From positions 1 to 40,677 of the forward strand of contig JBKJOH010000338.1 in the NCBI GenBank assembly GCA_046593295.1: a stretch of 40,677 bases of DNA, given 5' to 3'. This DNA is from Polaromonas sp. Lineage in GTDB: Bacteria; Pseudomonadota; Gammaproteobacteria; Burkholderiales; Burkholderiaceae_C. The position numbers and the translations under genes were made by a program. This document shows positions 3,040 through 36,971 of this stretch, piece after piece; position 1 is the first letter of the stretch; every line of letters starts with the position of its first letter. The notes below the pieces were generated by a model, which saw only the letters and a program-made list of their open reading frames with translations, had not been told where the DNA came from and ran no database searches.

Positions 3040-4524
3040 ATGTTCCATACCGCTACTAAAAATAAACAAAAAACGGCCACAACCGTTGTTTTACGAGCGC
3101 TAGCAGCTTCTCTTTTTATAGCATCAGCAACTCTGGCGCAGTCTCAAACGCAGGCGCGCCCCGAAGAGCCCAGCCTGCCCTACACCATCAAGCCGTCTGA
3201 CAAACTCATCAGGCTCAGTCGCGAGATGCTGGTCAGCCCACAGGCCTGGGCTGAAGTGGCCAAGTACAACCAGTTGAAAGACCCTAACCTGATCTTCCCC
3301 GGCCAGAAGCTGAACATTCCGCTGCGCTACCTCAAATCAAAGCCTTCGACAGGCAAAATCATCAGTGCAGATGGCGATGTCACGCTGGGCGGCAACCCGA
3401 CGCAGCCGGATGCCGCGATTGCCGATGGCAGTCAGCTTAAAACCGGCATCAACAGCTCTGCCATCATCGAGCTGGGCGATGGCAGCCGCATCAAGATCCT
3501 GCCCAACAGCCTGGCCCAAGTCGTCACCAACCGCGACTACGCCATGCGCGATTCATCGGCCAGCGGGTCAACCAACTGGTTTTCAGGCTTGATGCGCTTG
3601 AGTGCGGGCGCACTGGAAGCTCTGGCCTCTAAAACCGCAAACCGTGCAACCCCGCTGAAAATTGAAACACCCACCTCGGTAGTCGGCGTGCGCGGTACCG
3701 AGTTTCGCGTCGCCTTTGACGACCCGGCGATCAACCCATCTAACGCAGCCCGCACTGAAGTCATTGAAGGCAAGGTCAGGGCCGACAACCCGGCCCAGCA
3801 AAGCGGCGCAGATTTACCCATGGGTACGGGTGCAGTGGTCAAGCCGACCGAGAAAGACATCAAGGTCGTCATTCTGCTGCCTGCTCCCGACCTGACGAAC
3901 ACGCCAGCCGAAGTACTCAAGCCCCTGGGTGCCTGGCCCATGCCCATGCTTGCTGGCGCATCGGCTTACCGGGTGCAGGTGTCCAGTGACGAGAAGTTTG
4001 ACAAGATCGTGCGCAACCTCAAGGTCGAATCTGGCAACGCCGACCTAGCGGATCTGGCCAATGGCAACTGGTTTGCCCGCGTGCGCGGCATTGATGGTGT
4101 CGGACTGGAAGGGTTCGATGCCGTCAAGCTGATCCTCGTTAAAGACGGCCAGTGGCGCGTCAGCTACTCCAGCATGAACGTCTCTGGCGGCCAGACCGTA
4201 CTCAGCTGGATAGGCCAGCAGTCTAACGGCCAGCCCTTTGTGGGCAGCGGCTATACCGCCGTGGTGGCGCGTGACCAAGCTTTGAAAGATATGGTCACCA
4301 CTGCCACCAAAGAAGTCACCGGAAGCGGCAACAAGCTGGCCCTGGGCGACCTGAAACCCGGCGTGTACTTCATCCGCCTGCGCGGCAAGCCCGCACAAAG
4401 CAGCGCTACAGCCACTGCAAGCGCTTCAAACGTCATGGACAGTGAAATCTACCGTTTTGAAATTCCCAGCAACTGGGGTCGCAGTGTTTTTGACCTGACG
4501 TCATCGCTACAGGCTGTGAAATAG
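3040..4524 (+). CDS. Secreted LysM + FecR-domain protein with C-terminal beta-sandwich (FN3-like) regions
   Basis: Signal-peptide-like N-terminus from ATG 3040. LysM motif YTIKPSD...YNQLKDPNLIFPGQKLNIP and FecR motif IETPTSVVGVRGTEFRV. Confidence 0.8.
   Translation: MFHTATKNKQKTATTVVLRALAASLFIASATLAQSQTQARPEEPSLPYTIKPSDKLIRLSREMLVSPQAWAEVAKYNQLKDPNLIFPGQKLNIPLRYLKSKPSTGKIISADGDVTLGGNPTQPDAAIADGSQLKTGINSSAIIELGDGSRIKILPNSLAQVVTNRDYAMRDSSASGSTNWFSGLMRLSAGALEALASKTANRATPLKIETPTSVVGVRGTEFRVAFDDPAINPSNAARTEVIEGKVRADNPAQQSGADLPMGTGAVVKPTEKDIKVVILLPAPDLTNTPAEVLKPLGAWPMPMLAGASAYRVQVSSDEKFDKIVRNLKVESGNADLADLANGNWFARVRGIDGVGLEGFDAVKLILVKDGQWRVSYSSMNVSGGQTVLSWIGQQSNGQPFVGSGYTAVVARDQALKDMVTTATKEVTGSGNKLALGDLKPGVYFIRLRGKPAQSSATATASASNVMDSEIYRFEIPSNWGRSVFDLTSSLQAVK
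3069..3123 (-). repeat. ~55 bp REP/MITE-like repeat, copy 1 (diverged), inside the LysM-FecR CDS
   Basis: Reverse complement TGCTATAAAAAGAGAAGCTGCTAGCGCTCGTAAAACAACGGTTGTGGCC aligns without gaps to the trmJ copy, 33/49 by hand count. Confidence 0.7.
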
Positions 4525-4550
4525 GCACAAAATTTCCGATTTTGACAGCA

Positions 4551-4605
4551 AAAAGTGGCCGCAGGCCTTTAAATACGGGCGTGACAAGCTACTAAATAAA
4601 TAGCA
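4551..4605 (-). repeat. ~55 bp REP/MITE-like repeat, copy 2, intergenic between convergent genes
   Basis: Reverse complement TGCTATTTATTTAGTAGCTTGTCACGCCCGTATTTAAAGGCCTGCGGCCACTTTT matches the mutS copy at 45/55 without gaps. Confidence 0.9.
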
Positions 4606-4620
4606 TCTACGGCAACCACA

Positions 4621-6196: not shown

Positions 6197-6219
6197 TACG
6201 GAGGAGCCCGCCCAGGTTC

Positions 6220-7056
6220 TCAGTTGCCCTGCCTGCCTGCCGTCGCTGCGGCTTTTTGCAGCATCGCCTTGGCCACCCCGCGCAGGATGTGGATTTCTTC
6301 AGGGCTGAGTTGTGCGCGGTTAAACAGCTGGTTGAGCCGGGGCATGAGTTTTTTCGGTGCGGCGGGATCGAGAAAGCCGATGCCAGTCAACGCTTCTTCC
6401 CAGTGCCTGAGCATGCCCGCCACCGCCGCCGCATCGGCCAGTTGCGGCCCGTCGGTCGCGCTCTGAACTGCAAAGCCGCCAAGGGCTTCACGCCAGTCAT
6501 AAGCAATCAGTTGCACCGCAGCCCCCAGGTTGAGCGAGCCAAACTTCGGGTCAGTCGGAATGCTCAAACACACATGGCAGCGGTACACGTCTTCGTTTTG
6601 CATACCAAAGCGCTCAGAGCCGAACAAAAAGGCCACGCCAGACGGCCTTACGGCATCAAAAGTGCCGTTTTTTTGTGCAGAATCAGGCTGTAACCCAATA
6701 AATACGGGCGCAAGCAGCTCCTGATTTAATAGCAAATTCTTGTCGTGACCGAGCAACTGCGCAAAATGCGCGCGCGGCGCCAGCGTTGGCGGGCCAAAGT
6801 CCCGCGGTGTCATGGCGGTGGCGCAGAGGTGCGTCATGCCGTCGAGCGCTTCATCGAGCGTTTCGACAATCCGCGCATTGGCCAGCACATCCAGCGCACC
6901 GCTGGCGCGCTGAATCGTTTCTTCGCGCCGCAGCACATTGGCCCAGCGCGGCTTGACCAGCACCATGTCGTCAAAGCCCATGACCTTCATGGCGCGCGCC
7001 GCCGCGCCTACGTTGCCAGCGTGGCTGGTGTGGATGAGGATGAAGCGCGTTTTCAT
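6220..7056 (-). CDS. trmJ: tRNA (cytidine/uridine-2'-O)-methyltransferase, TrmJ family (SPOUT)
   Basis: SHAGNVGAAARAMKVMGF, FLFGSERFG, SLNLGAAVQL. Lies between cysE and suhB. Confidence 0.92.
   Translation of the reverse strand: MKTRFILIHTSHAGNVGAAARAMKVMGFDDMVLVKPRWANVLRREETIQRASGALDVLANARIVETLDEALDGMTHLCATAMTPRDFGPPTLAPRAHFAQLLGHDKNLLLNQELLAPVFIGLQPDSAQKNGTFDAVRPSGVAFLFGSERFGMQNEDVYRCHVCLSIPTDPKFGSLNLGAAVQLIAYDWREALGGFAVQSATDGPQLADAAAVAGMLRHWEEALTGIGFLDPAAPKKLMPRLNQLFNRAQLSPEEIHILRGVAKAMLQKAAATAGRQGN
6686..6736 (-). repeat. REP/MITE-like repeat, copy 3, in-frame inside trmJ
   Basis: TTTGCTATTAAATCAGGAGCTGCTTGCGCCCGTATTTATTGGGTTACAGCC, 44/51 identical to the mutS copy. Encodes LLLNQELLAPVFIGLQP. 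Confidence 0.9.
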
Positions 7057-8178: not shown

Positions 8179-8199
8179 AAACCTGACCAAGGTGCGGCA

Positions 8200-8221: not shown

Positions 8222-8273
8222 GCTTAAAGCATCTCCCCGCGGCACGCACGTTGACCTAGAGTTTCAATGTCTT

Positions 8274-8297
8274 GTATTCCATACATGTATAGAATAC
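8274..8297 (+). promoter_or_regulatory. Palindromic operator overlapping the -10 box of the HTH gene
   Basis: GTATTCCATACATGTATAGAATAC, a 24 bp palindrome with one mismatched pair. Contains TAGAAT (8290-8295), 7 nt before ATG 8303. Confidence 0.7.
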
Positions 8298-8302
8298 TGG
8301 TC

Positions 8303-8812
8303 ATGTCACCATCACTTCATAATATCGCCAAAGACCTTCGCACCCTACGGATTTCCAAAGGCATGACGCAGCAAGCGCTGGCCGACGCTGCGGGTATCAG
8401 CCGCACCACGCTGGTTCAAATCGAAAAAGGTAAAGACGCTCAAATGTCCAGCATAGCCATGGCCGGACAGGTGCTCGGCGTAACGGTCGGCGTTTTGCAA
8501 GAGTCCCCAGAGATTACAAGGCGCAGGCAAGCGCGCGCTGACAACCAAACCAAGCTGGCCGCGTCACGCGAGAAGCATTTGAAGCTCGCCGTCAAGTTCG
8601 CACTGGGTGGCCCTGAGGCGATAGCGCTTAAGAAAGACGCGCTACGCATGGTCAAGCTCTGGCAAGACAAGCAGCTGTGCAGCCCCGTTTACATAGAGCG
8701 TTGGCTGAAGATTTTGAACGCCAAGCCGCTGCAGGTGGCGCAAAGCTTGACAAAGATGGACGATGAATGGGGCCCAGCGATGCGCCAAAACACGCCTTTC
8801 ACCACATCATGA
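8303..8812 (+). CDS. XRE-family HTH protein with C-terminal RQNTPF-motif domain (putative antitoxin)
   Basis: LRTLRISKGMTQQALADAAGISRTTLVQIEKG HTH. ATGA overlap with the next gene. Confidence 0.8.
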   Translation: MSPSLHNIAKDLRTLRISKGMTQQALADAAGISRTTLVQIEKGKDAQMSSIAMAGQVLGVTVGVLQESPEITRRRQARADNQTKLAASREKHLKLAVKFALGGPEAIALKKDALRMVKLWQDKQLCSPVYIERWLKILNAKPLQVAQSLTKMDDEWGPAMRQNTPFTTS

Positions 8813-9360
8813 ACATCGAAGACATAGACCGCGTGTTGAGTGCGATCCGTGACACCAGCGGACTTGACGAGTTTGTAGTGATCGGCAGCTTGTCGGCACT
8901 GGGTATTACCGGTGGCAACCTTCCAGCGCGCATGACATGGTCGATGGAGGTGGATGCCTACCCGGAGCGTGACCCCCACAGAGCGCCTGAGTTTTCTGAA
9001 CAATTCGGCGAAGGTAGCGCCTTTCACCAGGCGCATGGCTACTACTTTGATGCAGTCAGCCCAGACCTGCCCACGCTGCCCGAAGGCTGGGAGCAGCGCC
9101 TAATTAAGCAAGTGCTTGCCTCGGGCGTAAAGGTTAAATACCTCGACCCCAACGATTGCGCGGTATCGAAGTACGCACGCTCCGAGCCCAAAGACAGGGA
9201 GTGGATCAGGGCAGGCATCGAAGCCGGCATTTTGTCTTTGCCCACCATCGAATACCGAATGCGCGAAACACTTTTCATTGACGATAGCGAACATCGCAAA
9301 GCCAAGGCATCTTTAAAAGAAGATACGGCGTGGTTCAAATCCCTGCGCCATCGCAGATAA
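8809..9360 (+). CDS. DUF6036-like nucleotidyltransferase (putative toxin)
   Basis: VVIGSLSAL, SMEVD, GEGSAFHQAHGYY, LPEGWEQRL and SKYARSEPKD fit a Pol-beta-fold NTase pattern. Start placed at ATG 8809. Confidence 0.75.
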   Translation: MNIEDIDRVLSAIRDTSGLDEFVVIGSLSALGITGGNLPARMTWSMEVDAYPERDPHRAPEFSEQFGEGSAFHQAHGYYFDAVSPDLPTLPEGWEQRLIKQVLASGVKVKYLDPNDCAVSKYARSEPKDREWIRAGIEAGILSLPTIEYRMRETLFIDDSEHRKAKASLKEDTAWFKSLRHRR

Positions 9361-9579
9361 ACGCATACTCAAAATCAGCTGTTGATGCTATTGCCTCAGT
9401 GGCAGCCAAGGTAAAGCCGCACGCTGGATTTGATAACAGCATTGACCACGTCGTTGCCAGTGCAGAGCTTGATTTGATCCAGCAAATCAGCCGTTGTCTT
9501 GGCCGAAAGCAGCAGGTCACCCGTCACCCAACTGTTGCCCATGACAAGCGAAAACAGATGCTCCCCGCATTGGGCAAGG

Positions 9580-9777
9580 CTGGCCTACGTCTCACGCGGG
9601 GCCATGCTCAAGGTGCGTGGCAAGCTCATGCAGGCTGGCAAGACCGACAAGACGATGTTTGGCGCAATTATGATCGCACTGTCGGTGTTGATATTGACCG
9701 GAGCCGACAAGCCTATGGAGGCATGGTTGGTGGAGCACTCGCCCGCTTGGCTCACGCAACTGACAACCCGGTTTTAA
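9580..9777 (+). pseudogene. 3' remnant of a CcdA-family cytochrome c biogenesis membrane protein
   Basis: LILTGADKPMEAWLVEHSPAWLTQLTTRF* resembles the C-terminus of this family as I recall it. No matching 5' part is visible upstream. Confidence 0.6.
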
Positions 9778-9818
9778 TACGCGCTGCCCCTCAATTTGAA
9801 CCGCCACAAGGAACTAGC

Positions 9819-10547
9819 ATGAACATCAAAGCCATCGCCTTCGACACCGGAGGGACGGTTCTCGACTGGCACTCGGGCGTAAGAGACGTATTTGCGGCCA
9901 TCGGAGCAAAGCATGGCGTGACAAGGGATTGGGCGTCGATTACGAATCAATATCGGCACCTGGCGATGAAGGGCATTGTTGGGCAATCGCAGCCCGACTT
10001 CAACATGGACGACGTTCACTACAGCGTTTTGGATGAGGTGCTCGAGTCCAACGATCTTTCGGTTTTTTCAGAGAACGACCGCAAGTCGATTGCTCAAGCG
10101 TGGCACCAGCTCGCGACGTGGAGCGACTTCGCCCGCCCTCTGCGTGATATCCGAGAGCTGGTTCCGGTGGTTTCCTTCACCATGCTGCCGTTGTCGCTGG
10201 TTGTGGATGTGTCCCGGCTCAACGGCATTTCCTGGGACGCTGTGATCTCCTGCGAAGCCATTGGCTACTACAAACCTGATCCCCGTGCATACCTGCAGGC
10301 CTCGAAATGGCTGGCGCTCGCCCCCGAGGACATTCTGATGGTGGCCTGCCATAACTTTGACCTCAATGCCGCACGGGCATGCGGCTTTAAGACAGCATTT
10401 GTCAGACGCCCCAGAGAGTGGGGCCATGAGCCTCCCCCGGAGCCGATACCCCACCCCGATTGCGACTTTGTCTTCGATGGATTCGACGAGCTGGCAAGGG
10501 CCGTTCGGTCGATTGCAGCCCCAGTTGCAAAAAATCCAGCCATATAG
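9819..10547 (+). CDS. Haloacid dehalogenase type II-like HAD hydrolase
   Basis: IAFDTGGTVLDW, YKPDPRAY, LMVACHNFDL. RBS AAGGA lies before ATG 9819, so the ORF-track extension to 9330 is probably spurious. Confidence 0.9.
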   Translation: MNIKAIAFDTGGTVLDWHSGVRDVFAAIGAKHGVTRDWASITNQYRHLAMKGIVGQSQPDFNMDDVHYSVLDEVLESNDLSVFSENDRKSIAQAWHQLATWSDFARPLRDIRELVPVVSFTMLPLSLVVDVSRLNGISWDAVISCEAIGYYKPDPRAYLQASKWLALAPEDILMVACHNFDLNAARACGFKTAFVRRPREWGHEPPPEPIPHPDCDFVFDGFDELARAVRSIAAPVAKNPAI

Positions 10548-10665
10548 TTGACCTTCACACAAAGGTGCCTTGATGACACCCACGACATAGATGCCTCGTC
10601 AAAAGGTTCGCTGCCTCGATGTCGAGTTGATCGGAGGCGCTTGGCCGTCTTGATAGACTCACTCA

Positions 10666-10737
10666 ATGACTGAAGAGCCCAAGCAGCACACCCCCATGAT
10701 GCAGCACTACCTGCGCATGACTTTACAAGGCGTATGA
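10666..10737 (+). pseudogene. mutS: Orphan 5' end of mutS at the left junction (MTEEPKQHTPMMQHYLRMTLQGV*)
   Basis: Hand translation gives the MutS N-terminal motif HTPMM..Y. Preceded by TGATAGACT (extended -10-like) 6 nt before the ATG. Not in the ORF track. Confidence 0.85.
10687..10701 (+). repeat. Left att core
   Basis: CACACCCCCATGATG, 14/15 identical to 34401-34415. Confidence 0.85.
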
Positions 10738-10769
10738 ATGCTGGAGATATGCCTGTAAGTCATGCGCCG

Positions 10770-10788
10770 AGTCCCCCTTTGGTCCCCA
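10770..10788 (+). promoter_or_regulatory. Putative integrase arm-type sites, left arm
   Basis: AGTCCCC and GGTCCCCA spaced 11 bp apart, matching the pair at 34232-34250. Confidence 0.6.
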
Positions 10789-10804
10789 ACGATCGTGTGG
10801 ACAA

Positions 10805-11389
10805 ATGACGGCACTTGACGGCGCCACAGCCCACGACAAAGCGGCCCTCGCAGCCTACCCACCACTGCTAGCCCACATCCTGTCTGGCAAGGAATTCGGA
10901 CCTCTGCTTGGCAGCGCCGACAGGGCAAAACATCAGGCTGAGTGGCGTGACTTGATCCGCGACTTGGCAGGACTGCCGCCCTCGTCAGAACAGCTCGCAG
11001 AACGCTTCCACACGCAGTGGCACGTCTGCCATCACTTCCTGCGCGAGCTCGTGGATAACGACGACCTGCTGATCGACATGCTCTGGGTCTGGCTGCCTCG
11101 ATACGTTGGGCCAGACTTGGTGCTCTATCGCGGCGAGAACATCGACCGCTTTGAGGCCCGGCGCATCGGCACGGCATGGACCGACAAGCAAGGGACTGCC
11201 GAGATGTTCGCCCGGGGCCTCAATGCCGTCGGCAAGGGCGGCGTGGTGCTGCGCGTTACAGCCCCCTCCACCGCGATCATTGCAGGGCCATCAAAGCACT
11301 CGCTCTACCTGGGTGAATCCGAGTTCACCATCGACACGGGTAGGCTCGCGGGGATCGAAGCCATCGCGCGCTTCGGTCGCATTTGCTGA
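10805..11389 (+). CDS. Hypothetical protein with ADP-ribosyltransferase-like motifs
   Basis: LYRGE...GTAWT...AEMFA...GESEF follows the R-S-E ART motif order. Confidence 0.55.
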   Translation: MTALDGATAHDKAALAAYPPLLAHILSGKEFGPLLGSADRAKHQAEWRDLIRDLAGLPPSSEQLAERFHTQWHVCHHFLRELVDNDDLLIDMLWVWLPRYVGPDLVLYRGENIDRFEARRIGTAWTDKQGTAEMFARGLNAVGKGGVVLRVTAPSTAIIAGPSKHSLYLGESEFTIDTGRLAGIEAIARFGRIC

Positions 11390-11555
11390 TGGATTGCCAT
11401 GTCGCGCTCAACTTGGGCAAGGGCAAACTGTCGCTGACCGTGCGGCGCTCTTGACCGAACTTCCAAGCCGACGCACCCGCCTGTCATTGCTCGACTTGGA
11501 CCTATTGACTTGCTCGGTCCCATCGAGCGAAATGCCTTTGAACAGGGAGGCACCC

Positions 11556-11825
11556 GTGGGACAGATTCGATTGTCATTTCGCAGTCTTGGGCCAAAGCTA
11601 GCCGCGGCCGCTCTCTTCGCCTTTTTAATTTACTTCCTTGAATCATCAATGATCAAGTCAGGAGCATCAGCTATCAACGCAAATGCCAACGAGCTCGCGG
11701 CCATTAGCCGAGACTGCAACGATTTGGCCGCGCGGAACTCCCGAGATTTGAACGACAAGAATCAGCTTGGAGCCCAGTGCATCAGGGACCGCATGGCAAG
11801 CTTGGGCAAAAAAACTTCTCCCTAA
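11556..11825 (+). CDS. Small single-pass membrane or secreted hypothetical protein
   Basis: GTG 11556 with RBS GGGAGG 5 nt upstream, hydrophobic LAAAALFAFLIYFL, two cysteines downstream. Confidence 0.5.
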   Translation: MGQIRLSFRSLGPKLAAAALFAFLIYFLESSMIKSGASAINANANELAAISRDCNDLAARNSRDLNDKNQLGAQCIRDRMASLGKKTSP

Positions 11826-11987
11826 TCTGTCGTCAACTCCCACTCAGCACGCGAAACGATACGAAGCCCACAACAGTAGCCACGTTGGAGAGCCTGAGAA
11901 GATGACACCGACACATAAAATCAGTAAGTTACTTTGGGCTGAACGGATTCCGAGCTGCGCTTGGACAAAACAACTAAAAGGATATTC

Positions 11988-12512: not shown

Positions 12513-12591
12513 CTAGGCGTCAGAAGACGATCAAGCTCCCCGCCTCGGCGTCTGCACGCTGCATCTCATTGATTTGAGCCTCGTAGCCCCA

Positions 12592-13467: not shown

Positions 13468-13475
13468 GAAAACCG

Positions 13476-15443: not shown

Positions 15444-15502
15444 GACAACCTCCTCTTATTGATGTGCTTTTGATTCAAAAACTAATATCACTGCGAACTT
15501 TT

Positions 15503-15856: not shown

Positions 15857-15859
15857 ATC

Positions 15860-18757: not shown

Positions 18758-18769
18758 TTTTACGCTCCC

Positions 18770-26069: not shown

Positions 26070-26260
26070 GAGCCCCTTTCTCGGGCCTCTCGCCCGTCGG
26101 CGAAGCAAGGAATGCGCCGATCAGAAAGAGAATACCACACTCATCATTTTGATTCGGGCTTTTTTGGCCGAGGTTCAGCCCAATTTCTCAGCTAGAACAC
26201 CAAAAAATCTCGCGGGTCGAAACTTGACTTATCGGGACCAAAGTGCCTCATAAAAAATGT

Positions 26261-27268: not shown

Positions 27269-27349
27269 GGTGGCCCCCATATAAATTGCATAAGGCCACC
27301 CTCTCAAAGCGAATGGGCAGTGTCGAGGCCGAATGTCCGATGGAGCCGC

Positions 27350-28303
27350 TCAGAGCGCCACACCACGTCTGCGTCTGGCCGTCTGTTCCGCGCGCAGTAT
27401 GGCAACCCTTCTGGCACCGCCATCGCGCAATTCACGGTCAACGGCACGCGGGGTCGGTTCGATGGAAAAGTCCGCCTCCACCGCCTGCACTGCCTGCTCA
27501 AACTTCTCGGGGCTGTGCGCGGCAGCAACCCAACGGCGAAACATGGCGCCACTTTCGGGCTGGTCAATCCAGCCGAATTCAGATCGGCTCGTGCGCAACC
27601 GCTCCTTGATCACTTCGACCGTCAGGATATTGGCTGTTGCTGCGCCGGGTTCATGGGCGCTGGTTTCCACAAGAGGTTTCAAAAAGTCGTCCGCGACCGA
27701 GTCGCGGGCGGCAGCGGTCCCATGGACCGCTGCGAGATTACTGATGTCAGTATGAAAATCGTATTGATCTCCTTTGGAGATCGTCATTACTGATAGAGAG
27801 GGTGGCGATGGCTCATAAGTCCGCGTGGCTATTGGGTTTCCAAAGGAATCGGATGTCACGTCGTTTGGCAACTTCAAAGGCCCACTGTTCTCTTCTGCCT
27901 TGGCTACTTGCCGTAATTTAAGGGCGGTCTTCTTGCAGATGGGCGACATCGGCAAAGCGAAGCGCAAGCCCTTGGTGGGGTGGTTTTCAATTTCACTCAC
28001 AAGGCCCGCATCGTGCAGCTTCATGAGCACGCGGCAAGCCTCCTTGGCATTCATGGTGTCTGCCGCTCGGCCTTGCGTGGTCGGCACCGTGATCAGGTCT
28101 GCCAGAAACTGGAATGTGATCACGCGCCTACCAAAATGCTTCACTTCGCCGGTCTTGAACGATGCCAGCCATTTCAGTTCGGGATACAAGACGCGCTCGC
28201 GCAGGCCCAAAGTTCGCAAAATATCCCGCTCGTCGCGGTCCATGCTCATGTAGGCCTCTTTCGCGGCGGGTGTTGCTGCGGGCTTAGGGTGGGTTGGCTT
28301 CAT
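27350..28303 (-). CDS. Hypothetical protein of the mobilization operon, possibly DNA-binding or replication-related
   Basis: 317 aa ORF directly after the relaxase with RBS AAGGAG. The N-terminal half looks winged-helix-like; no family recognised. Confidence 0.55.
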   Translation of the reverse strand: MKPTHPKPAATPAAKEAYMSMDRDERDILRTLGLRERVLYPELKWLASFKTGEVKHFGRRVITFQFLADLITVPTTQGRAADTMNAKEACRVLMKLHDAGLVSEIENHPTKGLRFALPMSPICKKTALKLRQVAKAEENSGPLKLPNDVTSDSFGNPIATRTYEPSPPSLSVMTISKGDQYDFHTDISNLAAVHGTAAARDSVADDFLKPLVETSAHEPGAATANILTVEVIKERLRTSRSEFGWIDQPESGAMFRRWVAAAHSPEKFEQAVQAVEADFSIEPTPRAVDRELRDGGARRVAILRAEQTARRRRGVAL

Positions 28304-28330
28304 ATGTCTCCTTTCTGGTCGTTGGGTGGT

Positions 28331-29635
28331 TCAAGGGTGTTTAGGTGCCTTGGGGCGGCTCGGGTCGTTGTCGTTCGATCCGGAGCCATCCGGTCCCTGC
28401 TGGCGTCTAAGCGCAAGCTTTGTCGCCAAATTGGTATTGAGTTGGAGAGGCGGCGCAGCGGGCACTAGGGGTGCTGGCTGTGCAGGCTCGGGTTCGAGGA
28501 TGGGCTGATGCGGAAATGGCGGTTCGGCGGGCGGAATTAACGCCATCGGAATCGCCACGGTGCCCATGGCGCCCGCACTCTCCGCAATGATCTGTTCCAG
28601 CATCGTGCGCTGCCCGGCATCGCGGGGATGCACCGGCATACCCTGCGCGATGGCTTCACGCATCGCCATCAGAATGAAGTCATGCGGGCCACTGAACACG
28701 ATGCTGGTCCAGCCGCGCGAGCACGCAAGGGCCACCATGGCTTTGGCGGCGCGCGCGTGGTTCATTTCGTAGGCAGTGAGCCGGTCGCCGTCGTCGTTGA
28801 TGCGCTCTGGGCGTTTCAGATAAATCACGCTGCCGCGCTGGTGGTGATAAATGTGGCTGACGTCGGGGTCCAGCAAATGCCTGACCATTGCGTCATAGCC
28901 GGGTGTTCGAAGGGCGCGCTTTATCTCGCGTCGCTGCTTCTCATTCGGGTTGTCGCCTGCCCATGCCGTCATGATGGTTGCACCATGTGCGAGGGCATAG
29001 GCATGAGTTGCCAGGTGGGTGCCAGTGTTCAACGGCTCCGGTATGAGCGCCTCTAAGGACTGATCCTCGGTTTTTTGGTTGGTTTGCATTCCTTTCTCCT
29101 TGGGATGGGTGGGTATTGACTGCTCGATGGACTGAACAACGTCCGGTGGTTCTGGCTTTCGATCATTCCTGGGTTGGCGCTTTTTCTTGACGAGGTTGAC
29201 GCGGCGTAATCCGAATTGCTCCTCGATGCGGGCAAGGCTTCGCTCTGCTTTGAAGCGGTCATTGCTATCGGGCACCGTCTTGCCATCCGGCCCGATGCGC
29301 AGGCACGCGATGTGGATATGGTCATGGCCCGTGTCGTTGTGCCTGAAAATCACATGGGGACACGACTGGTAGCCGAGGTCTTTCAGAAAGATGTCTGCGA
29401 TACGGTTCCACGCTTCCTCGTCAAGCGGCGGGTCTTCGGGCGCCGCCGACAGCATCAGGTGGGCCACCGCCCGCGACAGGGAGGGACGTAGTTTTCTGAA
29501 CTGTCCGAACTCTTTGGATAGCTGGCGCGGCGTGCGGCCTGCGAGGTTGCCGCCGATGATGACGCGGTGATCGTCATCCATGTTGTAGGATAGAAGGCCC
29601 TCAATGCCGTGGCCCTTGATAATCTTGGAAATCAT
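28331..29635 (-). CDS. MOBP-type relaxase with C-terminal LPD7-like domain
   Basis: N-terminal tyrosine (LLSYN), HLMLS, RHNDTGHDHIHI HUH motif. C-terminal DDGDRL...SRGWTSIVFSG. Confidence 0.88.
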   Translation of the reverse strand: MISKIIKGHGIEGLLSYNMDDDHRVIIGGNLAGRTPRQLSKEFGQFRKLRPSLSRAVAHLMLSAAPEDPPLDEEAWNRIADIFLKDLGYQSCPHVIFRHNDTGHDHIHIACLRIGPDGKTVPDSNDRFKAERSLARIEEQFGLRRVNLVKKKRQPRNDRKPEPPDVVQSIEQSIPTHPKEKGMQTNQKTEDQSLEALIPEPLNTGTHLATHAYALAHGATIMTAWAGDNPNEKQRREIKRALRTPGYDAMVRHLLDPDVSHIYHHQRGSVIYLKRPERINDDGDRLTAYEMNHARAAKAMVALACSRGWTSIVFSGPHDFILMAMREAIAQGMPVHPRDAGQRTMLEQIIAESAGAMGTVAIPMALIPPAEPPFPHQPILEPEPAQPAPLVPAAPPLQLNTNLATKLALRRQQGPDGSGSNDNDPSRPKAPKHP

Positions 29636-30000
29636 GGTCGCCCCCGGTTCTGAGGGGGTTCATCGCCGGTGGCACCGATAAGCTGTAACCGGAGAATGCG
29701 CACCTGCACCGCAAGTTGATTGATGACATCGACATCAATGCCGTGGGCATTGCCTGCGTTGATGGCGGCTGCAATCTGGTTCAGATTGGAGCCGACACGT
29801 GCCAGCTCAGCATATTGACTTCGACTGATTTCCGATGGCGGCTGTTCGATCTTTTTTGTGAGCGCAACACGCCGCAAGAAAGTAGACATCGGTAAACGCG
29901 CCACACGCGCCTTGATCTCTAACGCCGCACGCTCGTCGTCGGTCAGATAGAGGTCAAATTTCTTTCGTAATTCGGCTGCTGAAAGCAGTCTGTTTCCCAT
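29632..30000 (-). CDS. mobC: Relaxosome accessory protein MobC (ribbon-helix-helix)
   Basis: LYLTDDER...MSTFLR and ELARVGSNLNQIA. RBS GGGAG before ATG 30000; 4 bp overlap with the relaxase. Confidence 0.88.
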   Translation of the reverse strand: MGNRLLSAAELRKKFDLYLTDDERAALEIKARVARLPMSTFLRRVALTKKIEQPPSEISRSQYAELARVGSNLNQIAAAINAGNAHGIDVDVINQLAVQVRILRLQLIGATGDEPPQNRGRP

Positions 30001-30030
30001 TTTGATACTCCCCTGCGGAAGGCAGCAAGC

Positions 30031-30075
30031 GCAACCAAACACACCGGCTCGCCGGGGGGTGGTTGCATGTCTTGC
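30031..30075 (+). other. Putative oriT, nick predicted between 30074 and 30075
   Basis: Inverted repeat GCAACCA...CCGGCTCGCCGG...TGGTTGC followed by ATGTCTTG|C. Same layout as the RP4 oriT (inverted repeat, then CTATCCTG|C). Directly upstream of mobC. Confidence 0.75.
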
Positions 30076-30181
30076 TCCTCCCGGTATCTATGTCTTCTCA
30101 AACCGGAGCCTTGAAGTCAAGAACCTGCCAACAAGAGGACGCGGCGCAGGCTTGCAATTGAATGGAAGACGCCGCGCCAGA

Positions 30182-30219
30182 CAACCAAAAAGCCGGCAAT
30201 ACCGGCTTTCGCTTGGTTG
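30182..30219. repeat. Long imperfect hairpin in the oriT intergenic region
   Basis: CAACCAA-AAAGCCGG-caata-CCGGCTTT-cgc-TTGGTTG. Confidence 0.6.
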
Positions 30220-30390
30220 AGACCTTGCTCGGCACCTTGGTGCGTCGGGTGTATACAAAAACATCCAGGCTGGTGAAAGAAAGATTTTGCACACCGACCG
30301 TCGCCAGCCAATTGACAACCGGTAAGCACTTTCAACCCAACAGAGCAGAAACACTACTCAATGCCGGACTTGCACGGTGATTGCGAATAT

Positions 30391-31002
30391 TCAAAGGCGA
30401 TGATTTGCAATAGCACGTTCGCGTTGGACAGGGCGAGATATGGCAACCTCCAATTCACACTTTTGGTGATTGGCGATGAAGCGATTTGCCAAACTGCGGA
30501 CCAGCTCGGCCATTTTCGGAAGGTAGCGACCCGACTCTGCGTCTTCCAATAAATCAAAAGCTGATTTCATATCTCGCGGCTCCATAAGCTGCTCGATCAC
30601 CTGAACAATGCTTTTATGGATCCTGTCATCCTGCGGAAGAGTTTCCATTGAGAGCATCCCACGAAATATCCAATCGATTGCAACCTCAGGCGCAATCTCG
30701 CCAGCCAGCAACATAAGCTTCAACGCACATTGATCTGCGACTTTGTAGGTGGCGGCAACGATGATGCTACCCTGCTGCATGGCTCCCGTCGGAAAACTGA
30801 TGTCGAACACTTGATCGAAAATTGACTCGCCCGACAGTTCCTCAAAAAGTTCAATCTGACTGATAGCAGCCACGACATCGTCGTTTTTAAAGGCTCGGTC
30901 AATTGATGTCAACGCCATCTCGGATTGAGCTCGTTTGACATTAGATTCAGTCGCTCCGCAACCATTTTTAAATTCGCGTTTTTTCCGTGATGCTTTTCCC
31001 AT
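30391..31002 (-). CDS. Hypothetical protein
   Basis: ORF with RBS AAGGA before MGKASRKKR. No family recognised. Confidence 0.55.
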   Translation of the reverse strand: MGKASRKKREFKNGCGATESNVKRAQSEMALTSIDRAFKNDDVVAAISQIELFEELSGESIFDQVFDISFPTGAMQQGSIIVAATYKVADQCALKLMLLAGEIAPEVAIDWIFRGMLSMETLPQDDRIHKSIVQVIEQLMEPRDMKSAFDLLEDAESGRYLPKMAELVRSLANRFIANHQKCELEVAISRPVQRERAIANHRL

Positions 31003-31113
31003 CTTCATTCCTTCTAATAGGCCAATGCGTGGCCATATGTTGAATTCAATCTGCTTGCACGCCAAACGGAGAATTCCGGCGATGCGACTGGCGCGATACG
31101 CACCGATGCCAAA

Positions 31114-31518
31114 TCAGAGAATGTCGGAACGCTCCTTCAACGCCTTCTTTGCGGCGCTGGGTTTGTTCGTCACCAATTCAAATTGGTTGATCCGCTTGAT
31201 GCCTTCCAACGCCATGCCGCAACGGAAAGAAAAGACCTTCTTGATGACGATGCCATCGCGCAGCACATGGACAGTAGTTCTCCACGAACGATGGGGCAGG
31301 CGCTCCTTGGAAGAGAATTCATATTCGTAGACACGAAACTGCTTCTTGTCGAAGTCAGGATGCTTGAATCTTTCGACAGCCGGGACGCCATCGATCCTCA
31401 ACACAATTTCCTCGTCATCGGCGACGGATTCTGAATAATTGAAACTGCTTGCGCGCGACATGGCGATCTTCGCCAATGGGCCTCGCGCCGCCGGACTCTT
31501 GCCTTTGGTAAATGACAT
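31114..31518 (-). CDS. Hypothetical basic protein
   Basis: RBS AAGGAG before ATG 31518 (MSFTKGK). No family recognised. Confidence 0.5.
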   Translation of the reverse strand: MSFTKGKSPAARGPLAKIAMSRASSFNYSESVADDEEIVLRIDGVPAVERFKHPDFDKKQFRVYEYEFSSKERLPHRSWRTTVHVLRDGIVIKKVFSFRCGMALEGIKRINQFELVTNKPSAAKKALKERSDIL

Positions 31519-31737
31519 CTCATCGCTCCTTTGGATTGAACTTCTGCATTTCGGCAGCACGATTGCTGTCAAAGTGTTGGAAGTATCTGCGCGATGAGAG
31601 TTTGGGTTGTCCTACAGTGAGACGAGTGAAGGCAAACGACGGCATGCGACGGCGCGACTTAAATTAATCGCTGCAAATACCGCCTTCAGTGTTGCTTTCA
31701 CACGTCGCGCGGCGGCACATTGCATATGTTTAGGCGC

Positions 31738-31761
31738 AAAAAAAGCCGCCCAGTGGCGGCT
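31738..31761 (-). terminator. Rho-independent terminator after the int/xis-like genes
   Basis: Minus strand reads AGCCGCC-ACTG-GGCGGCT followed by a T-run. Confidence 0.8.
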
Positions 31762-31786
31762 CCTAACTTCCCGTCCGATCAGCCGT

Positions 31787-32428
31787 TCAAGCGCGGGGCT
31801 TCGCGCCTTGAATTGACGCTTCGAGCGCGGCCGTCGCAACGTCGGTGGAATCGATTCCATTTTGAACGCCCCGCAAGGACTTCGTCAGCACGTCCTGGAC
31901 GGACTCGGCGAAATCCCGATGTCGGGACAGGTCGGTCCAGCGGCGCGACGCGGCCTCGACGGGAGTCATCCACAAAATATCCCAGTGCCCTATACGCTCC
32001 ACCACCGTCCCCAGCAGGTTTTCCTCCACCATGGATTCGACGTTGCCCATCTTGTCGAGGTAAAACGCCTCGTGCTCGGCCACATCGAAGAGGGTGGCGA
32101 ACTTTTGCCCCTTGCGAATCGCCGCCTGAGTGGAATCGGACACTTGATTCCCATCCAACCAAGCGATCAAATGCGCTTTTTTGTAGAGGCACATTTGATT
32201 AGTGCCCGCTGCTTTGACGCCGCCACCTTGGCTATATATCGGGCCTCCGCCTTCCTTGCGAAGCCGCTCCAACTTCGTCACCGATGTGCGCAGGAATATC
32301 GCCGCCTCGCTTGTGGTCAACATGACGCTTGGATCGAGCGCGCTGATTGCCGCGAGCACTTCGGTGACCTTCATCACCATCCCGTTGTAACGCGCGTCGG
32401 CTAATAAGTTCTGGGCCATTCCTGCCAT
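31787..32428 (-). CDS. Excisionase-like HTH protein with a long C-terminal extension
   Basis: MLTTSEAAIFLRTSVTKLERLRKEGGGPIY is an HTH_17/AlpA-like pattern. Follows the integrase; RBS GGAG. Confidence 0.75.
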   Translation of the reverse strand: MAGMAQNLLADARYNGMVMKVTEVLAAISALDPSVMLTTSEAAIFLRTSVTKLERLRKEGGGPIYSQGGGVKAAGTNQMCLYKKAHLIAWLDGNQVSDSTQAAIRKGQKFATLFDVAEHEAFYLDKMGNVESMVEENLLGTVVERIGHWDILWMTPVEAASRRWTDLSRHRDFAESVQDVLTKSLRGVQNGIDSTDVATAALEASIQGAKPRA

Positions 32429-32493
32429 GATTTCTCCATATTTAGTAAATTTTTCATCAGCTTACCCGAGAGCCTTGATCCAGCGGCTTTCGC

Positions 32494-34101
32494 CTAGGCG
32501 GCCTCTTTTCGCGGTCGTCCTGTCCTAGGTTTGGGCGGCCGGCACTGATGCGGCTCGATCGGTGGCATGGGCGGCCAGTCTGCGGGCTTCAACGAGTTGT
32601 AGACGTTGGGCGCCCTCGACAAGATCGACTGCTCGATCTTCATCATCCATTCGCGCAGCAAACTCCATTCGGCCTGCGTGTAGACATCGGTCACCGAGGA
32701 ATGCGCGTGGTTTAAGAACCGGCTCTTGATGCTGTCGGGCACCTCCAACGCGGTCATCACCGCGCCAAAGGAGCGTCGCAAGTCGTGTCGGTTGAGGCGC
32801 TCTACACCGATCTCTTCGCGGAGGTCATCGAGCAAATCGGTCGCGTCCGAATAGTGTCCGCTGTTGGACAGCTTGCTGCGGGCCGGGAAAACGAATCTCC
32901 TGGACTTGTCGCCGAATCCTCTTCGAACGGCCTCGGCTGCCGACGCCGCCTGCCGGCGTTTAAGAAGCTCCAAGGTCATGGGCGTGATGGGCATGCGGTG
33001 GTTGCGCCCGTTCTTGGTCTTGTAGAAGAAGACGTAGGGACCCCAGTCGGGATGATCTTTGAGCACGACGTGGCTCGTGGATCGGCGCCCAATCCCCACA
33101 CCTCCCACCTCCGTCAACAGCTCGCCCCAGACCAACCCCGCGTGCTCGCTTTTCCGGCATCCCCAGAGCAGCATCAGCATGAGGTAGTGGACGCCGGTCA
33201 AGTTGTCGTTCATGTCCTTCTTCGACCAGCAGGCCTCCAAGAAACGCCCGAGGTCCTGAGTGGGGCGCAGCGGATTGCGCTTGCCCTTCTCCTCGCGCTC
33301 GGCGTCGATCATTTCCTTGGAGCGGTAGTGCCCGTTGAGGCTAAGCGTGCGAAATGGATTGCCTTTGAGCGTGGGCTCGCGGTTTTGCGCGTCGGCCCGA
33401 ATCTTCTCGTTCTCGATATACCAATCAATCGCCCGCGAGGGCCAGCGGAAAGCTTGCTCGGTGGCAGTCGGCGTCGCGTCCTTGGTTTTTAAAAACTTCT
33501 CGATGATGTCGGCGTCGGAGACCTCGCGCACTTTGCGGTCCGACCATTTCCATTCCTCATGCCGCTTCATCACCCGGTCGTAGACCTTCAAGGTCTCCAC
33601 CTTGGCAGGCTTGACGGTGCGGGTGGTCAGGTGCGCGCGGTAGGCCAGCATCGCCTGCTTCAACGTGACCTCGGCCGCATTGGCTTCCCTGGCGAGAGCG
33701 TTGGGGTTTTGGCCCGTCTCGATCATGGTCCGAGCCAAATTAGCCGCTTTGGCCCGAGCATCCTGTATCTTGTCGAAGTCCGCGACATTGCCGACTTTGG
33801 AGAGCATGGATTTGCCCATGACCTTGCGGCGCAGGATGAAGGTCTTGTTGCCCGCCACTTTGAGGCCGAAGCCCGGCGGAGCGTCGCGGCTGGTGTCCCA
33901 TAAGATGTAGCTTTCGGGCTTGGGGACCGGTTTTTCCGCGAACGTCAACTTGCCATCGGCGCCGTAGCCCACGGGCGGGCGCTCAAGTTTTCGAAGCTTG
34001 CAGTAGTTGTCGTTGAGCTCGGCGCGCCATGCAGGCGCGCGCTTCGACGCTGCGGTCCCCACGGGGGATTCGGATTCTTGGCTCGATTCGTCAAGCTGCA
34101 T
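32494..34101 (-). CDS. Tyrosine recombinase/integrase with N-terminal arm-binding domain
   Basis: Catalytic set GCRKSE, KTKNG, HDLRR, LNH, DVY. N-terminal LWD...PGFGLKV. Confidence 0.93.
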   Translation of the reverse strand: MQLDESSQESESPVGTAASKRAPAWRAELNDNYCKLRKLERPPVGYGADGKLTFAEKPVPKPESYILWDTSRDAPPGFGLKVAGNKTFILRRKVMGKSMLSKVGNVADFDKIQDARAKAANLARTMIETGQNPNALAREANAAEVTLKQAMLAYRAHLTTRTVKPAKVETLKVYDRVMKRHEEWKWSDRKVREVSDADIIEKFLKTKDATPTATEQAFRWPSRAIDWYIENEKIRADAQNREPTLKGNPFRTLSLNGHYRSKEMIDAEREEKGKRNPLRPTQDLGRFLEACWSKKDMNDNLTGVHYLMLMLLWGCRKSEHAGLVWGELLTEVGGVGIGRRSTSHVVLKDHPDWGPYVFFYKTKNGRNHRMPITPMTLELLKRRQAASAAEAVRRGFGDKSRRFVFPARSKLSNSGHYSDATDLLDDLREEIGVERLNRHDLRRSFGAVMTALEVPDSIKSRFLNHAHSSVTDVYTQAEWSLLREWMMKIEQSILSRAPNVYNSLKPADWPPMPPIEPHQCRPPKPRTGRPRKEAA

Positions 34102-34131
34102 GGCTAGCCTCTCGAAAAAGCATGCGATTTG

Positions 34132-34250
34132 GTGGCAGGGGGAGTTCTGACCTTGCCCAAGCCCTTGTCACGCATCACATTTTTTGTGGCAGGGGGAGTA
34201 AGATAGAGCATATCAGAACATAGAGGAAGGCGGTCCCCACCGGATCCCCG
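34132..34250. promoter_or_regulatory. Right-arm repeats (putative integrase arm or Xis sites)
   Basis: Perfect 14 bp direct repeat GTGGCAGGGGGAGT at 34132-34145 and 34186-34199. GGTCCCCA and GATCCCCG at 34232 and 34243. Confidence 0.65.
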
Positions 34251-34328
34251 TAGACCATGTTGGCAAACGACGGAACTTGAAGGCGAACGAAGGAGCTTTG
34301 ATGCCTTCACAGTGAGATAAGTGATTGA

Positions 34329-36971
34329 ATGAAAACAGAAAAAGAGCAGATTGACGAGAAAGAGATAGAACCCCATGGGGAGGCATCAGGGGCCGTTAAA
34401 CACACGCCCATGATGGCCCAGTACCACGCCATCAAGGCGGAGTACCCTGAGACGCTGGTTTTCTACCGCATGGGCGATTTTTACGAGGTGTTTTATGCCG
34501 ATGCTGAAAAGGCCTCGCGCCTGCTTGGCATCACGCTGACGCGGCGTGGCCAGTCGGCTGGTGAGCCGGTTGTCATGGCGGGTGTGCCTTTTCATTCGCT
34601 TGAAGGCTATCTGGCCAAGCTCATCAAGCTCGGTGAGTCGGTCGCGATTTGTGAGCAGGTTGGCGATGTGGGCGCGAGCAAAGGCCCGGTGGAGCGCAAG
34701 GTGGTGCGCGTCATCACGCCGGGTACGCTGCTTGACCCCGAGCTGCTGGCTGACAAAACAGAATCTATCTTGCTGGCCGTACACCAGGGCGCGCGCAACA
34801 CCTGTGGGCTGGCGTGGTTGAGCGTAACGCAGGGCCAGATTAACCTGGCGCAGTGCGCTAACGATGAGCTGGAAAGCGCTCTAGCACGCATTGCCCCCAG
34901 TGAGCTGATTTACAACGTCGATGTCACCCCTGCTTTTGAGTTGCGTTTGAAGGCGCTGCGCTGCGCGGTCAGCGCCCGCCCAGCCTGGCAGTTTGATGCC
35001 GCACTGGGCGCGCGGCGTTTGCTGGAGCAGCTCAAGGTCGCGTCGCTGGCTTCATGGAATGCTGAGGGTTTGAGCGAGGCGCACGCTGCCGCATCCAGCC
35101 TGCTGGGTTATGCAGAACACACCCAGGGCCGCACCCTGCCGCATGTGCAGGCTCTGGCCGTGGTGCGCTCGGGTGAGTTGATTGAGCTGCCAGTCACCAC
35201 ACGGCGCAATCTGGAGTTGACGCAAACCCTGCGCGGCGAAGATTCACCGACGCTGTTTTCGTTGTTGGATACTTGCGCGACTGGCATGGGCAGCCGCACC
35301 TTGAAAAGCTGGCTGCTCAACCCCAGCCGTGACCGCAGCCAAGCCGCCAGCAGGCTTGAAGCCATCACGTATTTACGCAGTGGCCCACAGCAAACCTTGC
35401 GTGCGCAACTCAAGGGCGCCAGCGATGTAGAGCGCATCACCGCGCGCATCGCGCTGCGCCAGGTGCGGCCACGCGAGCTGCTGGCCTTGCAGTTGACGCT
35501 ACAGCGTTTGCTATTAAATAAGGAGCTTGTCACGCCCGTATCTATTGGGCTACAGCCACTTTTAGCCTCTATTTTTGCCGATTTGAAGCCGCCGGAAGGC
35601 TGCGAATCGCTCATCAGCCGCACCATCCTGCCCGAGCCCGCTGCGCTGGTGCGTGACGGCGGCGTTATCAATCATGGCTGCGATGCAGAGCTTGACGAGC
35701 TGCGCGGCATACAGACCAATTGCGATGCATTTTTGCTGGACCTTGAAGGCCGCGAAAAGCTGCGCACCGGCATCACCAACCTGCGCGTGCAGTTCAACAA
35801 GGTGCATGGCTTTTACATTGAAGTCACGCAGGGCCAAGCCAGCAAGGTACCTGACGACTACCGCCGGCGCCAGACCCTGAAAAACGCCGAGCGCTACATC
35901 ACGCCCGAGCTAAAAAGCTTTGAAGACAAGGCCCTGTCTGCGCAAGAGAGGGCGCTGGCGCGCGAGAAGTTTTTATATGAGCAGTTGCTTGACCAGTTGC
36001 AGGCCTACATTCCCGCGCTCAGTCGCCTGGCACGCGCCCTCGCCGCACTGGATGCGCTGTGTGCGTTGGCCGAGCGCTCGCTCACGCTGAACTGGGCCGC
36101 GCCGGTGTTTGTCAAAGAGCCGTGTATTGACATCACACAAGGCCGACACCCGGTGGTTGAAGCGCGGCTGCTGGAGACGGGTGCAACAGCATTTATCGCC
36201 AACGATTGCAGCATGAGCGCCAAACAGCGCATGCAGGTGATTACCGGCCCGAACATGGGCGGCAAGTCAACCTACATGCGCCAGGTTGCCCTCATCGTGC
36301 TGCTGGCCAGCATGGGCTCATACGTGCCCGCAGCCAGTTGCAGGCTGGGGCCGATTGATGCCATCCACACCCGCATAGGCGCGGCAGATGATGTAGCCAA
36401 CGCGCAATCGACCTTCATGCTGGAGATGCTGGAGGCCGCGCAGATTCTCCACGCCGCTTCACCTACGTCTCTGGTGCTGATGGACGAGATTGGGCGCGGT
36501 ACCTCGACCTTTGATGGCCTGGCACTGGCGGGGGGCATTGCAGCGTACTTGCACAACAAGACGCAAGCCTTGACGCTGTTTGCCACGCATTATTTTGAGT
36601 TGACCGAGTTCCCGGCCAAACACCACGGGGCGATTAACGTCCACGTCAGCGCGGTTGAGGCGGGTAGCGATATCGTGTTTCTGCATCACATAGAGCCCGG
36701 CCCGGCGAGCAAAAGCTACGGCATTGCGGTGGCCAAACTGGCAGGCGTGCCTGCTGCGGTGGTTAACCACGCACGCCACGCTTTAAGCGCGCTAGAAGCC
36801 CAGCAAATTGATGCACGAGCGCAGGTAGATTTGTTTGCCGCCCCGCCTGACGCGGAATCCATAGCACCTAGCGCCGTAGAATCAGCGCTTGCAGGGATTG
36901 ACCCCGATAGCTTGAGTCCGCGCGATGCGCTGGAGACTTTGTATAAGTTAAAGAAGCTGATGAATCGCTGA
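34329..36971 (+). CDS. mutS: DNA mismatch repair protein MutS, with an element-derived 5' end
   Basis: [54 protein letters not shown]. The actual start may be 34329 or 34410. Confidence 0.97.
34401..34415 (+). repeat. Right att core
   Basis: CACACGCCCATGATG (HTPMM codons of mutS). Confidence 0.85.
35507..35563 (+). repeat. REP/MITE-like repeat, copy 4, in-frame inside mutS
   Basis: TTTGCTATTAAATAAGGAGCTTGTCACGCCCGTATCTATTGGGCTACAGCCACTTTT, an AT-rich patch in a GC-rich gene. Encodes [19 protein letters not shown]. Confidence 0.9.

What the first reader, a model, noticed from the sequence alone, without database searches (positions are those of the whole stretch)
3069..35563. A ~55 bp repeat translated in-frame inside housekeeping genes, giving the same peptide in MutS and TrmJ
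Seen: four ungapped copies at 3069-3123, 4551-4605, 6686-6736 and 35507-35563. The trmJ and mutS copies are 44/51 identical and read in the same frame (LLLNQELLAPVFIGLQP vs [17 protein letters not shown], 13/17 aa) in unrelated proteins. The intergenic copy has TAG TAG in that frame where the coding copies have CAG GAG and AAG GAG. Known: Rickettsia palindromic elements insert in-frame into genes. Inference: a REP/MITE-like family here donates coding sequence, and only stop-free variants persist in ORFs. Similar repeats seem common in Comamonadaceae as I recall, so the repeat itself may be known; its coding use is the point of interest.
Basis: partly seen in the sequence, partly recalled or inferred. 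Interest (0 to 1): 0.82.

Follow-up and report, generated by a model that had tools for sequence, protein, structure and literature searches.

The report
Genome-wide DNA signal overlaying core genes
A 55-85-base DNA motif that occurs about 340 times in this Polaromonas-like genome is mostly written over the existing codons of core genes such as mutS rather than inserted, fades at its sites in lineages that lose the family, and borders toxin-antitoxin cassettes, so it is likely a maintained recognition and recombination signal rather than a jumping repeat that donates peptides.

Summary
The four copies are real. The genome holds 343; 108 lie in frame in genes, across all six frames. The window's 3069 copy is coding too, in a signal peptide. 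The 'donated coding sequence' reading mostly fails. MutS spans 78 aa at the site in 18 of 19 motif-rich congeners against 79 in 13 of 14 outgroup families. LigA, PurK and MltG align without gaps to solved homologues. Only TrmJ gains about 30 aa. The mutS site survives in 19 of 19 motif-rich and 0 of 13 motif-poor congeners, across several nested losses. New here: same-orientation copies flank toxin-antitoxin cassettes (5 of 48 toxins against 4 of 779 controls) and separate gene arrays in relatives; the replication in other genomes was not significant. No RAYT, IntI, ComEC or ComP-like pilin tracks the motif. Most likely it is an uptake-sequence-like double-stranded DNA signal that also anchors recombination; the partner protein is unknown. 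This scan reported the same motif on eight other genomes; I found no paper describing it.

The parts
35509..35563 (+). Motif copy inside mutS, sense frame S2, about residues 394-412; tail tracts run on to about 35590
   Evidence: site shared with 19 of 19 motif-rich congeners
35498..35509 (+). 12-nt lineage-specific gain (+4 aa) between the ancestral left arm (GCTAC at 35498) and the present left arm
   Evidence: alignment with congeners
34329..36971 (+). mutS, intact, 880 aa
6680..6734 (-). Motif copy inside trmJ, sense frame S2, in a loop about 30 aa longer than in solved TrmJ homologues; tail to about 6650
6220..7056 (-). trmJ (tRNA 2'-O-methyltransferase), intact
4551..4605 (-). Intergenic copy between the convergent ends of the LysM-FecR gene and cysE; patchy in relatives (score >15 in 15 of 104 loci, variable offset, same orientation)
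3069..3123 (-). Motif copy read antisense (frame A1) in the predicted signal peptide of the LysM-FecR protein
3040..4524 (+). LysM-FecR gene (start predicted by my gene caller)
8267..34101 (.). Roughly 26-kb integrative island with no motif copy (negative control inside the window)

Best explanation
The repeat is a genome-wide DNA motif that is kept in place at the DNA level and is likely read as double-stranded DNA by a host protein that would favour uptake or recombination of DNA carrying it, in the way uptake sequences work. SHOWN: fixed geometry (palindromic GCTAY-N7-RTAGC core, one-sided extension, A/T tracts about one helical turn apart); overlay on native codons; persistence at orthologous genic sites; loss of those sites in lineages that lose the family; copies in phage contigs; direct copies around accessory cassettes with duplications of variable length. 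INFERRED: a dimeric protein binds the core and bends or wraps the tail; mutations that improve a match are driven to fixation where the protein tolerates them (mostly Ala-x4-Ala helices, loops and signal peptides); incoming DNA recombines at the motif by homology, which leaves direct copies around cassettes and now and then adds in-frame residues at its 5' edge (MutS +4, TrmJ about +30). The protein and the uptake link are untested.
For: Overlay: MutS segment 79 aa in 13 of 14 outgroup families, 78 in 18 of 19 rich congeners; LigA, PurK, MltG gapless and LeuRS +2 against PDB homologues; one G006 site absent in G008 at equal length, 281 vs 281 nt. DNA-level signal: 107 of 108 genic copies beat synonymous resampling of their own peptide at p<0.01. 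Frame use [S0 3, S1 38, S2 10, A0 6, A1 47, A2 4] does not follow which frames are open in intergenic copies (A1 open in 14%; chi-square 217). Concordant loss: mutS site score >0 in 19 of 19 genomes with >=250 core hits, 0 of 13 below, with at least four nested losses or declines on the MutS tree. No strand preference in genes (51 sense, 57 antisense). Core palindrome shows no pairing covariation (pair 6-14 complementary in 0.39, expected 0.50); strongest covariation is AA versus TT within tracts. Absent from the window's island. Cassettes; duplications of 48-459 nt that include the motif. Uptake sequences arise by mutation and homologous recombination, show frame bias and are missing from recently acquired genes (PMC2817400, abstract and passages).
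Against: ComEC and ComP-family pilins are present in motif-poor genomes too, so loss of competence does not explain loss of the motif. The motif is far longer than the 9-10-nt cores of known uptake sequences. Strong preference for convergent intergenic regions (55 of 211 vs 21 of 304 divergent) and the cysE copy at variable offsets look REP-like. G015 has 16 near-uniform copies in 240 kb, all intergenic, and orthologous G015/G018 copies follow each genome's own variant, which copying would also give. A weak hairpin signal exists at positions 26-29/39-42 (z 5.7). The toxin association was noticed in G000 first and did not replicate significantly: 22 of 60 PIN loci near a copy vs 34 of 116 control genes, direct flanking 3 of 60 vs 1 of 116, p=0.12.
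Confidence: 0.45

Rival explanations
1. The motif is the site of a chromosome-organising or topology protein (a sequence-specific dimer that wraps DNA or loads a topoisomerase or SMC). Ordinary selection keeps the sites; cassettes collect there only because dispersed 55-bp homologies recombine.
For: Palindromic core plus phased A/T tracts, longer still in G015/G018; no strand bias; fewer gaps under 1 kb than random, 24 vs 34+-5; competence genes do not track the motif.
Against: Repeated genome-wide loss in nested lineages is odd for a structural function; spacing is random beyond 2 kb; no candidate protein identified.
Confidence: 0.25
2. A site-specific enzyme copies the motif between sites: it inserts copies in intergenic DNA and overwrites partial matches in genes by short-patch gene conversion, and integrates cassettes by crossover in or near the core.
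For: Inverted 5-bp arms around a 7-bp spacer recall tyrosine-recombinase cores (recalled, not tested); extra sequence appears at the 5' edge in MutS of G000 and of G019/G033; 4 of 14 larger indels end 19-70 nt before a motif (p=0.03); about 21 substitutions in 70 nt at one gapless G006/G008 site (hand count); uniform intergenic copies in G015.
Against: Flanking duplications vary from 48 to 459 nt, so there is no fixed crossover; RAYT/TIRYT (35 of 36 congeners) and IntI (11 of 36, including two poor genomes) do not track the motif; ancestral residues persist inside genic copies; G006/G008 orthologous copies keep site-specific features, 8 of 10 shared.
Confidence: 0.2
3. One reading: an RPE/REP/MITE-like element inserts in frame and donates peptides, and only stop-free copies survive.
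For: TrmJ loop +30 aa vs E. coli and +27 vs G015/G018; one more gene +17; stop codons purged in genic copies; convergent-region bias.
Against: No length gain in MutS, LigA, PurK, MltG, LeuRS or in 7 of 9 genes; no terminal inverted repeats or target duplication; few near-identical copies (nearest neighbour 43.5 of 52 vs 41.5 shuffled); inserted DNA would not keep rare codons across species at 80% protein identity, nor lose them only where the family is lost.
Confidence: 0.1

Closest known systems
DNA uptake sequences (Pasteurellaceae USS, Neisseriaceae DUS; PMC2817400)
   Same: Hundreds of dispersed copies, both orientations, a large share in genes with frame bias, overlay without insertion, absence from recently acquired DNA.
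   Different: Known cores are 9-10 nt; this has a 17-nt palindromic core and 55-85 conserved bases at about 0.12 per kb. No uptake role shown; competence genes do not track it.
Rickettsia palindromic elements and intragenic GTAG/CGTC REPs (PMC10969869, PMC3733652)
   Same: Recurrent peptides in unrelated housekeeping proteins, including DNA repair and replication genes.
   Different: Those are insertions that add residues; here most genic copies add none. No flanking RAYT and no conserved stem-loop.
Neisseria dRS3/NIME repeats and minimal mobile elements (PMC3898611)
   Same: About 700 copies of short inverted arms around a variable spacer; used as integration and recombination points; cassettes between conserved genes.
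   Different: dRS3 sits in intergenic arrays and is a target of a phage integrase; this motif is single, one-sided, often coding, and no integrase was found.
Integron attC arrays (recalled)
   Same: Accessory genes and toxin-antitoxin pairs separated by same-orientation repeats.
   Different: No attC consensus, no conserved hairpin, dispersed sites, and IntI does not track the motif.

Membership tests
RPE / coding REP / MITE | In-frame insertion adds residues relative to element-free orthologues | tested here: not met
   MutS -1 to +3, LigA/PurK/MltG 0, LeuRS +2; met only for TrmJ and one other gene
RPE / coding REP / MITE | Stem-loop conserved by compensatory change | tested here: inconclusive
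   None in the core; weak signal at 26-29/39-42, broken in the G015 variant
RPE / coding REP / MITE | Terminal inverted repeats and target-site duplication (MITE) | tested here: not met
   Sharp 5' edge, fading 3' tail, no matching ends in the column profile of 263 copies
REP-RAYT | RAYT gene flanked by the repeat and co-occurring with it | tested here: not met
   G000's three Y1 genes and most of 23 relatives' loci carry GGGTCAGA-type TIRs; a motif core occurs in 2 of 23; Y1 in 35 of 36 congeners, rich and poor
RPE / WPE | Match to the NCBIfam models of these elements | tested here: not met
   0 families at E<=0.01 for the three window peptides
DNA uptake sequence (USS/DUS) | Preferential uptake of DNA that carries the motif | not testable with these tools
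   needs an uptake assay
DNA uptake sequence (USS/DUS) | Arises in place by substitution, not by insertion | tested here: met
   (genic sites; origin of intergenic sites not resolved)
DNA uptake sequence (USS/DUS) | Both orientations, frame bias, absent from acquired DNA | tested here: met
DNA uptake sequence (USS/DUS) | Short 9-10-nt non-palindromic core | tested here: not met
   17-nt palindromic core with long extension
DNA uptake sequence (USS/DUS) | A receptor or competence gene whose state tracks the motif | tested here: inconclusive
   ComEC in 33 of 36 and ComP-family pilin in 33 of 36 congeners, rich and poor alike
Integron attC | attC consensus and an IntI that co-occurs | tested here: not met
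   IntI in 11 of 36 congeners including poor G028 and G031; 1 weak attC-like hit genome-wide with a crude pattern
Rfam RNA family | Match at gathering score | tested here: not met
   0 matches in the window

The most novel reading that the evidence does not exclude
Part of the Comamonadaceae runs an undescribed 'self-DNA' system: a lineage-specific protein reads a 60-100-bp signal, strongly enough to rewrite about 100 core proteins per genome and to be copied by phages, and the same signal is a dispersed landing pad through which toxin-antitoxin and other cassettes build integron-like arrays without an integron.
Probability: 0.3. Interest if true: 0.9.

Novelty: new variant of a known kind. 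Interest (0 to 1): 0.66.

Why it matters
If the motif is a recognition signal, it is several times longer than any uptake sequence described, it has reshaped MutS, LigA, AddAB, tRNA synthetases and signal peptides in an abundant freshwater and glacier lineage, and it has been lost repeatedly in sister species. Those nested rich/poor pairs make the long-standing question of how such motifs arise and what they cost the proteome directly testable. The cassette arrays suggest the same site channels gene acquisition. It also warns that recurrent peptides in unrelated proteins need not be inserted elements.

Tried and rejected
RAYT as mobiliser: flanked by a different repeat and present in poor genomes. 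GIY-YIG: one hit, in a 672-codon frame. IntI, ComEC, ComP-family pilins and their gene clusters: none tracks the motif. An apparent excess of divergent pilins in rich genomes was post hoc and not borne out by gene content. Rfam: nothing. Replication-strand polarity: 128 vs 148 by contig GC skew, none. Population reads: no RNA holder listed; contigs of four runs covered the cassette locus thinly and gave no usable empty-site joint. Close relatives of the C308 toxin: best 59% in metagenomes, none informative in plasmids. The mutS copy found no plasmid match, and the strict G000-type pattern found 0 viral contigs. No donor locus for the extra 51 nt in G019 mutS. A full ML tree did not finish; FastTree was used, without bootstrap. 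Replication of the toxin association was not significant. Literature searches found no description of this motif; the Polaromonas JS666 genome paper, cited for a MITE in PMC10969869, is not held and may describe it.
Full report
Observation. The four copies, the 44 of 51 identity and the two peptides are as described. An HMM from the copies finds 343 hits at E<=0.01 in the 2.8-Mb, 76%-complete genome, with none at E<=1 in the reversed genome. With my own hexamer gene caller, 108 copies lie inside genes, 49 overlap gene ends and 186 are intergenic. The 3069 copy is coding: it spells the predicted signal peptide of the LysM-FecR protein on the opposite strand, as in most orthologues seen. The best TrmJ relatives are mostly titled Polaromonas, so the genus is inferred, not read from the record.

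Anatomy. Copies are nearly all ungapped (263 of 271). There is a core YGCTAY-N7-RTAGCT with an A/T-rich variable spacer, a GC-rich middle, and A or T tracts near positions 9, 33, 53, 64 and 75. The strongest covariation is AA versus TT within tracts. The core's inner pairs are no more complementary than chance; a weak pairing signal lies at 26-29/39-42 (z 5.7 in 351 sites), and the G015 variant breaks it. Orientation in genes is 51 sense to 57 antisense. This points to double-stranded DNA rather than RNA; that step is inference.

Distribution. Forward core counts are >=250 in 22 of 36 congeners, 107-219 in 4, and <=41 in 10; all 24 genomes of other families have <=39. In the family, 66 of 250 genomes have >=90 and 176 have <40. 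On a FastTree of MutS the poor and intermediate genomes fall in at least four places nested among rich ones (SH-like support only, outgroups cut to two). One of these clades includes G031, an unpublished genome; G007 and G028 show the same state without it. Kin are not independent, so the correlations overstate. A looser pattern also hits phage contigs: 43 matches with an A/T-rich spacer in the first 80 of 124 loci, many inside ORFs, a few probably chance.

Insertion or overlay. Between fixed anchors MutS has 79 aa in 13 of 14 outgroup families (77 in one), 78 in 18 of 19 rich congeners, 82 here and 95 in G019; G033, G045 and G058 were dropped for lack of an anchor match. The extra residues here and in G019/G033 sit 5' of the core. 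LigA, PurK and MltG align without gaps through the motif to solved homologues, and LeuRS is 2 longer; these four were my picks from 108. TrmJ is the exception: 42 residues where E. coli has 11, and 56 between anchors against 24-34 in eleven short motif-free congener loci (105 of 110 loci had anchors, some duplicated). In an unselected comparison with G015, G018 and G028 blocks, 7 of 9 genes differ by at most +5 aa and two by +17 and +27. So overlay is the rule and expansion the minority.

Maintenance at the DNA level. The mutS site scores above zero in 19 of 19 rich and 0 of 13 other congeners. Genic copies beat synonymous resampling in 107 of 108 cases, and use frames A1 and S1 far out of proportion to openness; stops are purged. 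Between G006 and G008 (92% identical) 8 of 10 sites are shared, one lies in a replaced gene, and one is absent at equal length. G015 differs: 16 copies in 240 kb, all intergenic and very uniform, and the four orthologous G015/G018 pairs follow their own genome's variant. That fits either a shifted specificity or copying.

Cassettes. In G000, same-orientation pairs enclose Pfam-confirmed toxin-antitoxin pairs. A non-genic copy lies within 900 nt of 19 of 48 toxin genes against 142 of 779 other small genes, and direct flanking occurs in 5 of 48 against 4 of 779, with no inverted case; I saw the pattern before testing it. At the hemL 3' end 17 of 29 congener loci have one same-orientation copy and none shows G000's cassette, while G000 has two copies around it. 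G030 and G009 carry arrays in which four direct copies separate small genes and TA pairs. Flanking duplications are 48-459 nt and include the motif; 5 of 7 G000 pairs are above the 89th percentile of random pair identity. Against this: in nine other genomes 22 of 60 PIN loci (60 of 113 found) lie near a copy versus 34 of 116 control genes, and direct flanking is 3 of 60 versus 1 of 116, not significant. Four of 14 larger indels end just 5' of a copy, a small and noisy sample. A separate GGGTCAGA repeat borders some cassettes and matches the TIR type of PMC3733652 (passages), so that transposase could move some of them.

Partner. RAYT/TIRYT, IntI, ComEC and ComP-family pilins occur in rich and poor genomes alike. 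No whole-proteome comparison was possible.

Comparison. It works like an uptake sequence in how it sits in genes (PMC2817400, abstract and passages) and like dRS3 in serving as a recombination point (PMC3898611, passages). It is not an RPE, REP or MITE by the tests above (PMC10969869 and PMC3733652, passages). Membership among uptake sequences cannot be tested here, and the core length differs. Nine searches found no description; most subscription papers are not held, no supplements were read, and the JS666 genome paper, seen only as a citation for a Polaromonas MITE, may bear on novelty. Eight earlier notes of this scan on other genomes reach the overlay reading; I had reached it (note). They are not independent support, and their short texts do not mention the cassettes.

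Verdict. Best reading: a maintained double-stranded DNA signal tied to uptake or recombination (0.45), partner unknown.

Noticed in passing
window 8267-34101: Integrative island: tyrosine integrase (32494-34101), relaxase and NikA, ArdC, WYL protein, SNF2 helicase with DUF1156 and DUF499 (defence-like), AAA_15 ATPase, ankyrin, DUF2726, HTH plus DUF6036 pair. It carries no motif copy.
   Followed up: partly
G000 genome-wide; L001-L003: A second repeat family with a GGGTCAGA core (238 non-genic pattern matches), often as facing pairs, beside three Y1 transposase genes; a subtype abuts the motif and some TA cassettes at about 25 nt.
   Followed up: partly
L505-L527; G000:C297: A Y1 transposase match occurs in 35 of 36 congeners, mostly single-copy and TIR-flanked; in G000:C297 it lies just before a glutamate-synthase-like ORF (name recalled).
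   Followed up: partly
G000:C261 (L480, L627): Intact integron integrase directly before a uvrA-like gene, with a motif copy 3 nt after its stop and no clear attC nearby.
   Followed up: partly
G000:C190 (L178): Several 200-460-nt repeats of motif plus a lysS-like 3' end, separated by TA cassettes: a repeated integration hotspot.
   Followed up: partly
L718 (G030:C87), L719 (G009:C111): Accessory-gene arrays separated by direct motif copies; the same small acidic-basic protein of 65-77 aa recurs between copies in both genomes.
   Followed up: partly
G000:C302 (L187): Three motif copies within the addA/addB-like genes; dprA, ligA, mutS also carry copies, and recX-like and xth-like genes are bracketed by them. 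Enrichment in DNA-maintenance genes was not tested.
   Followed up: no
table: The ComEC Competence-domain match spans more bases in several rich genomes (about 920-980) than in several poor ones (about 845-855), with overlap; possibly motif-linked expansion.
   Followed up: no
G015, G018 (L548-L559, L573-L577): Lineage with half the usual count, no genic copies seen, very uniform intergenic copies and A/T tracts extending beyond 100 bp.
   Followed up: partly
L357, L374, L385, L403: Phage contigs with a copy in or near terminase-like ORFs (gene names recalled from the sequences, not scanned).
   Followed up: no
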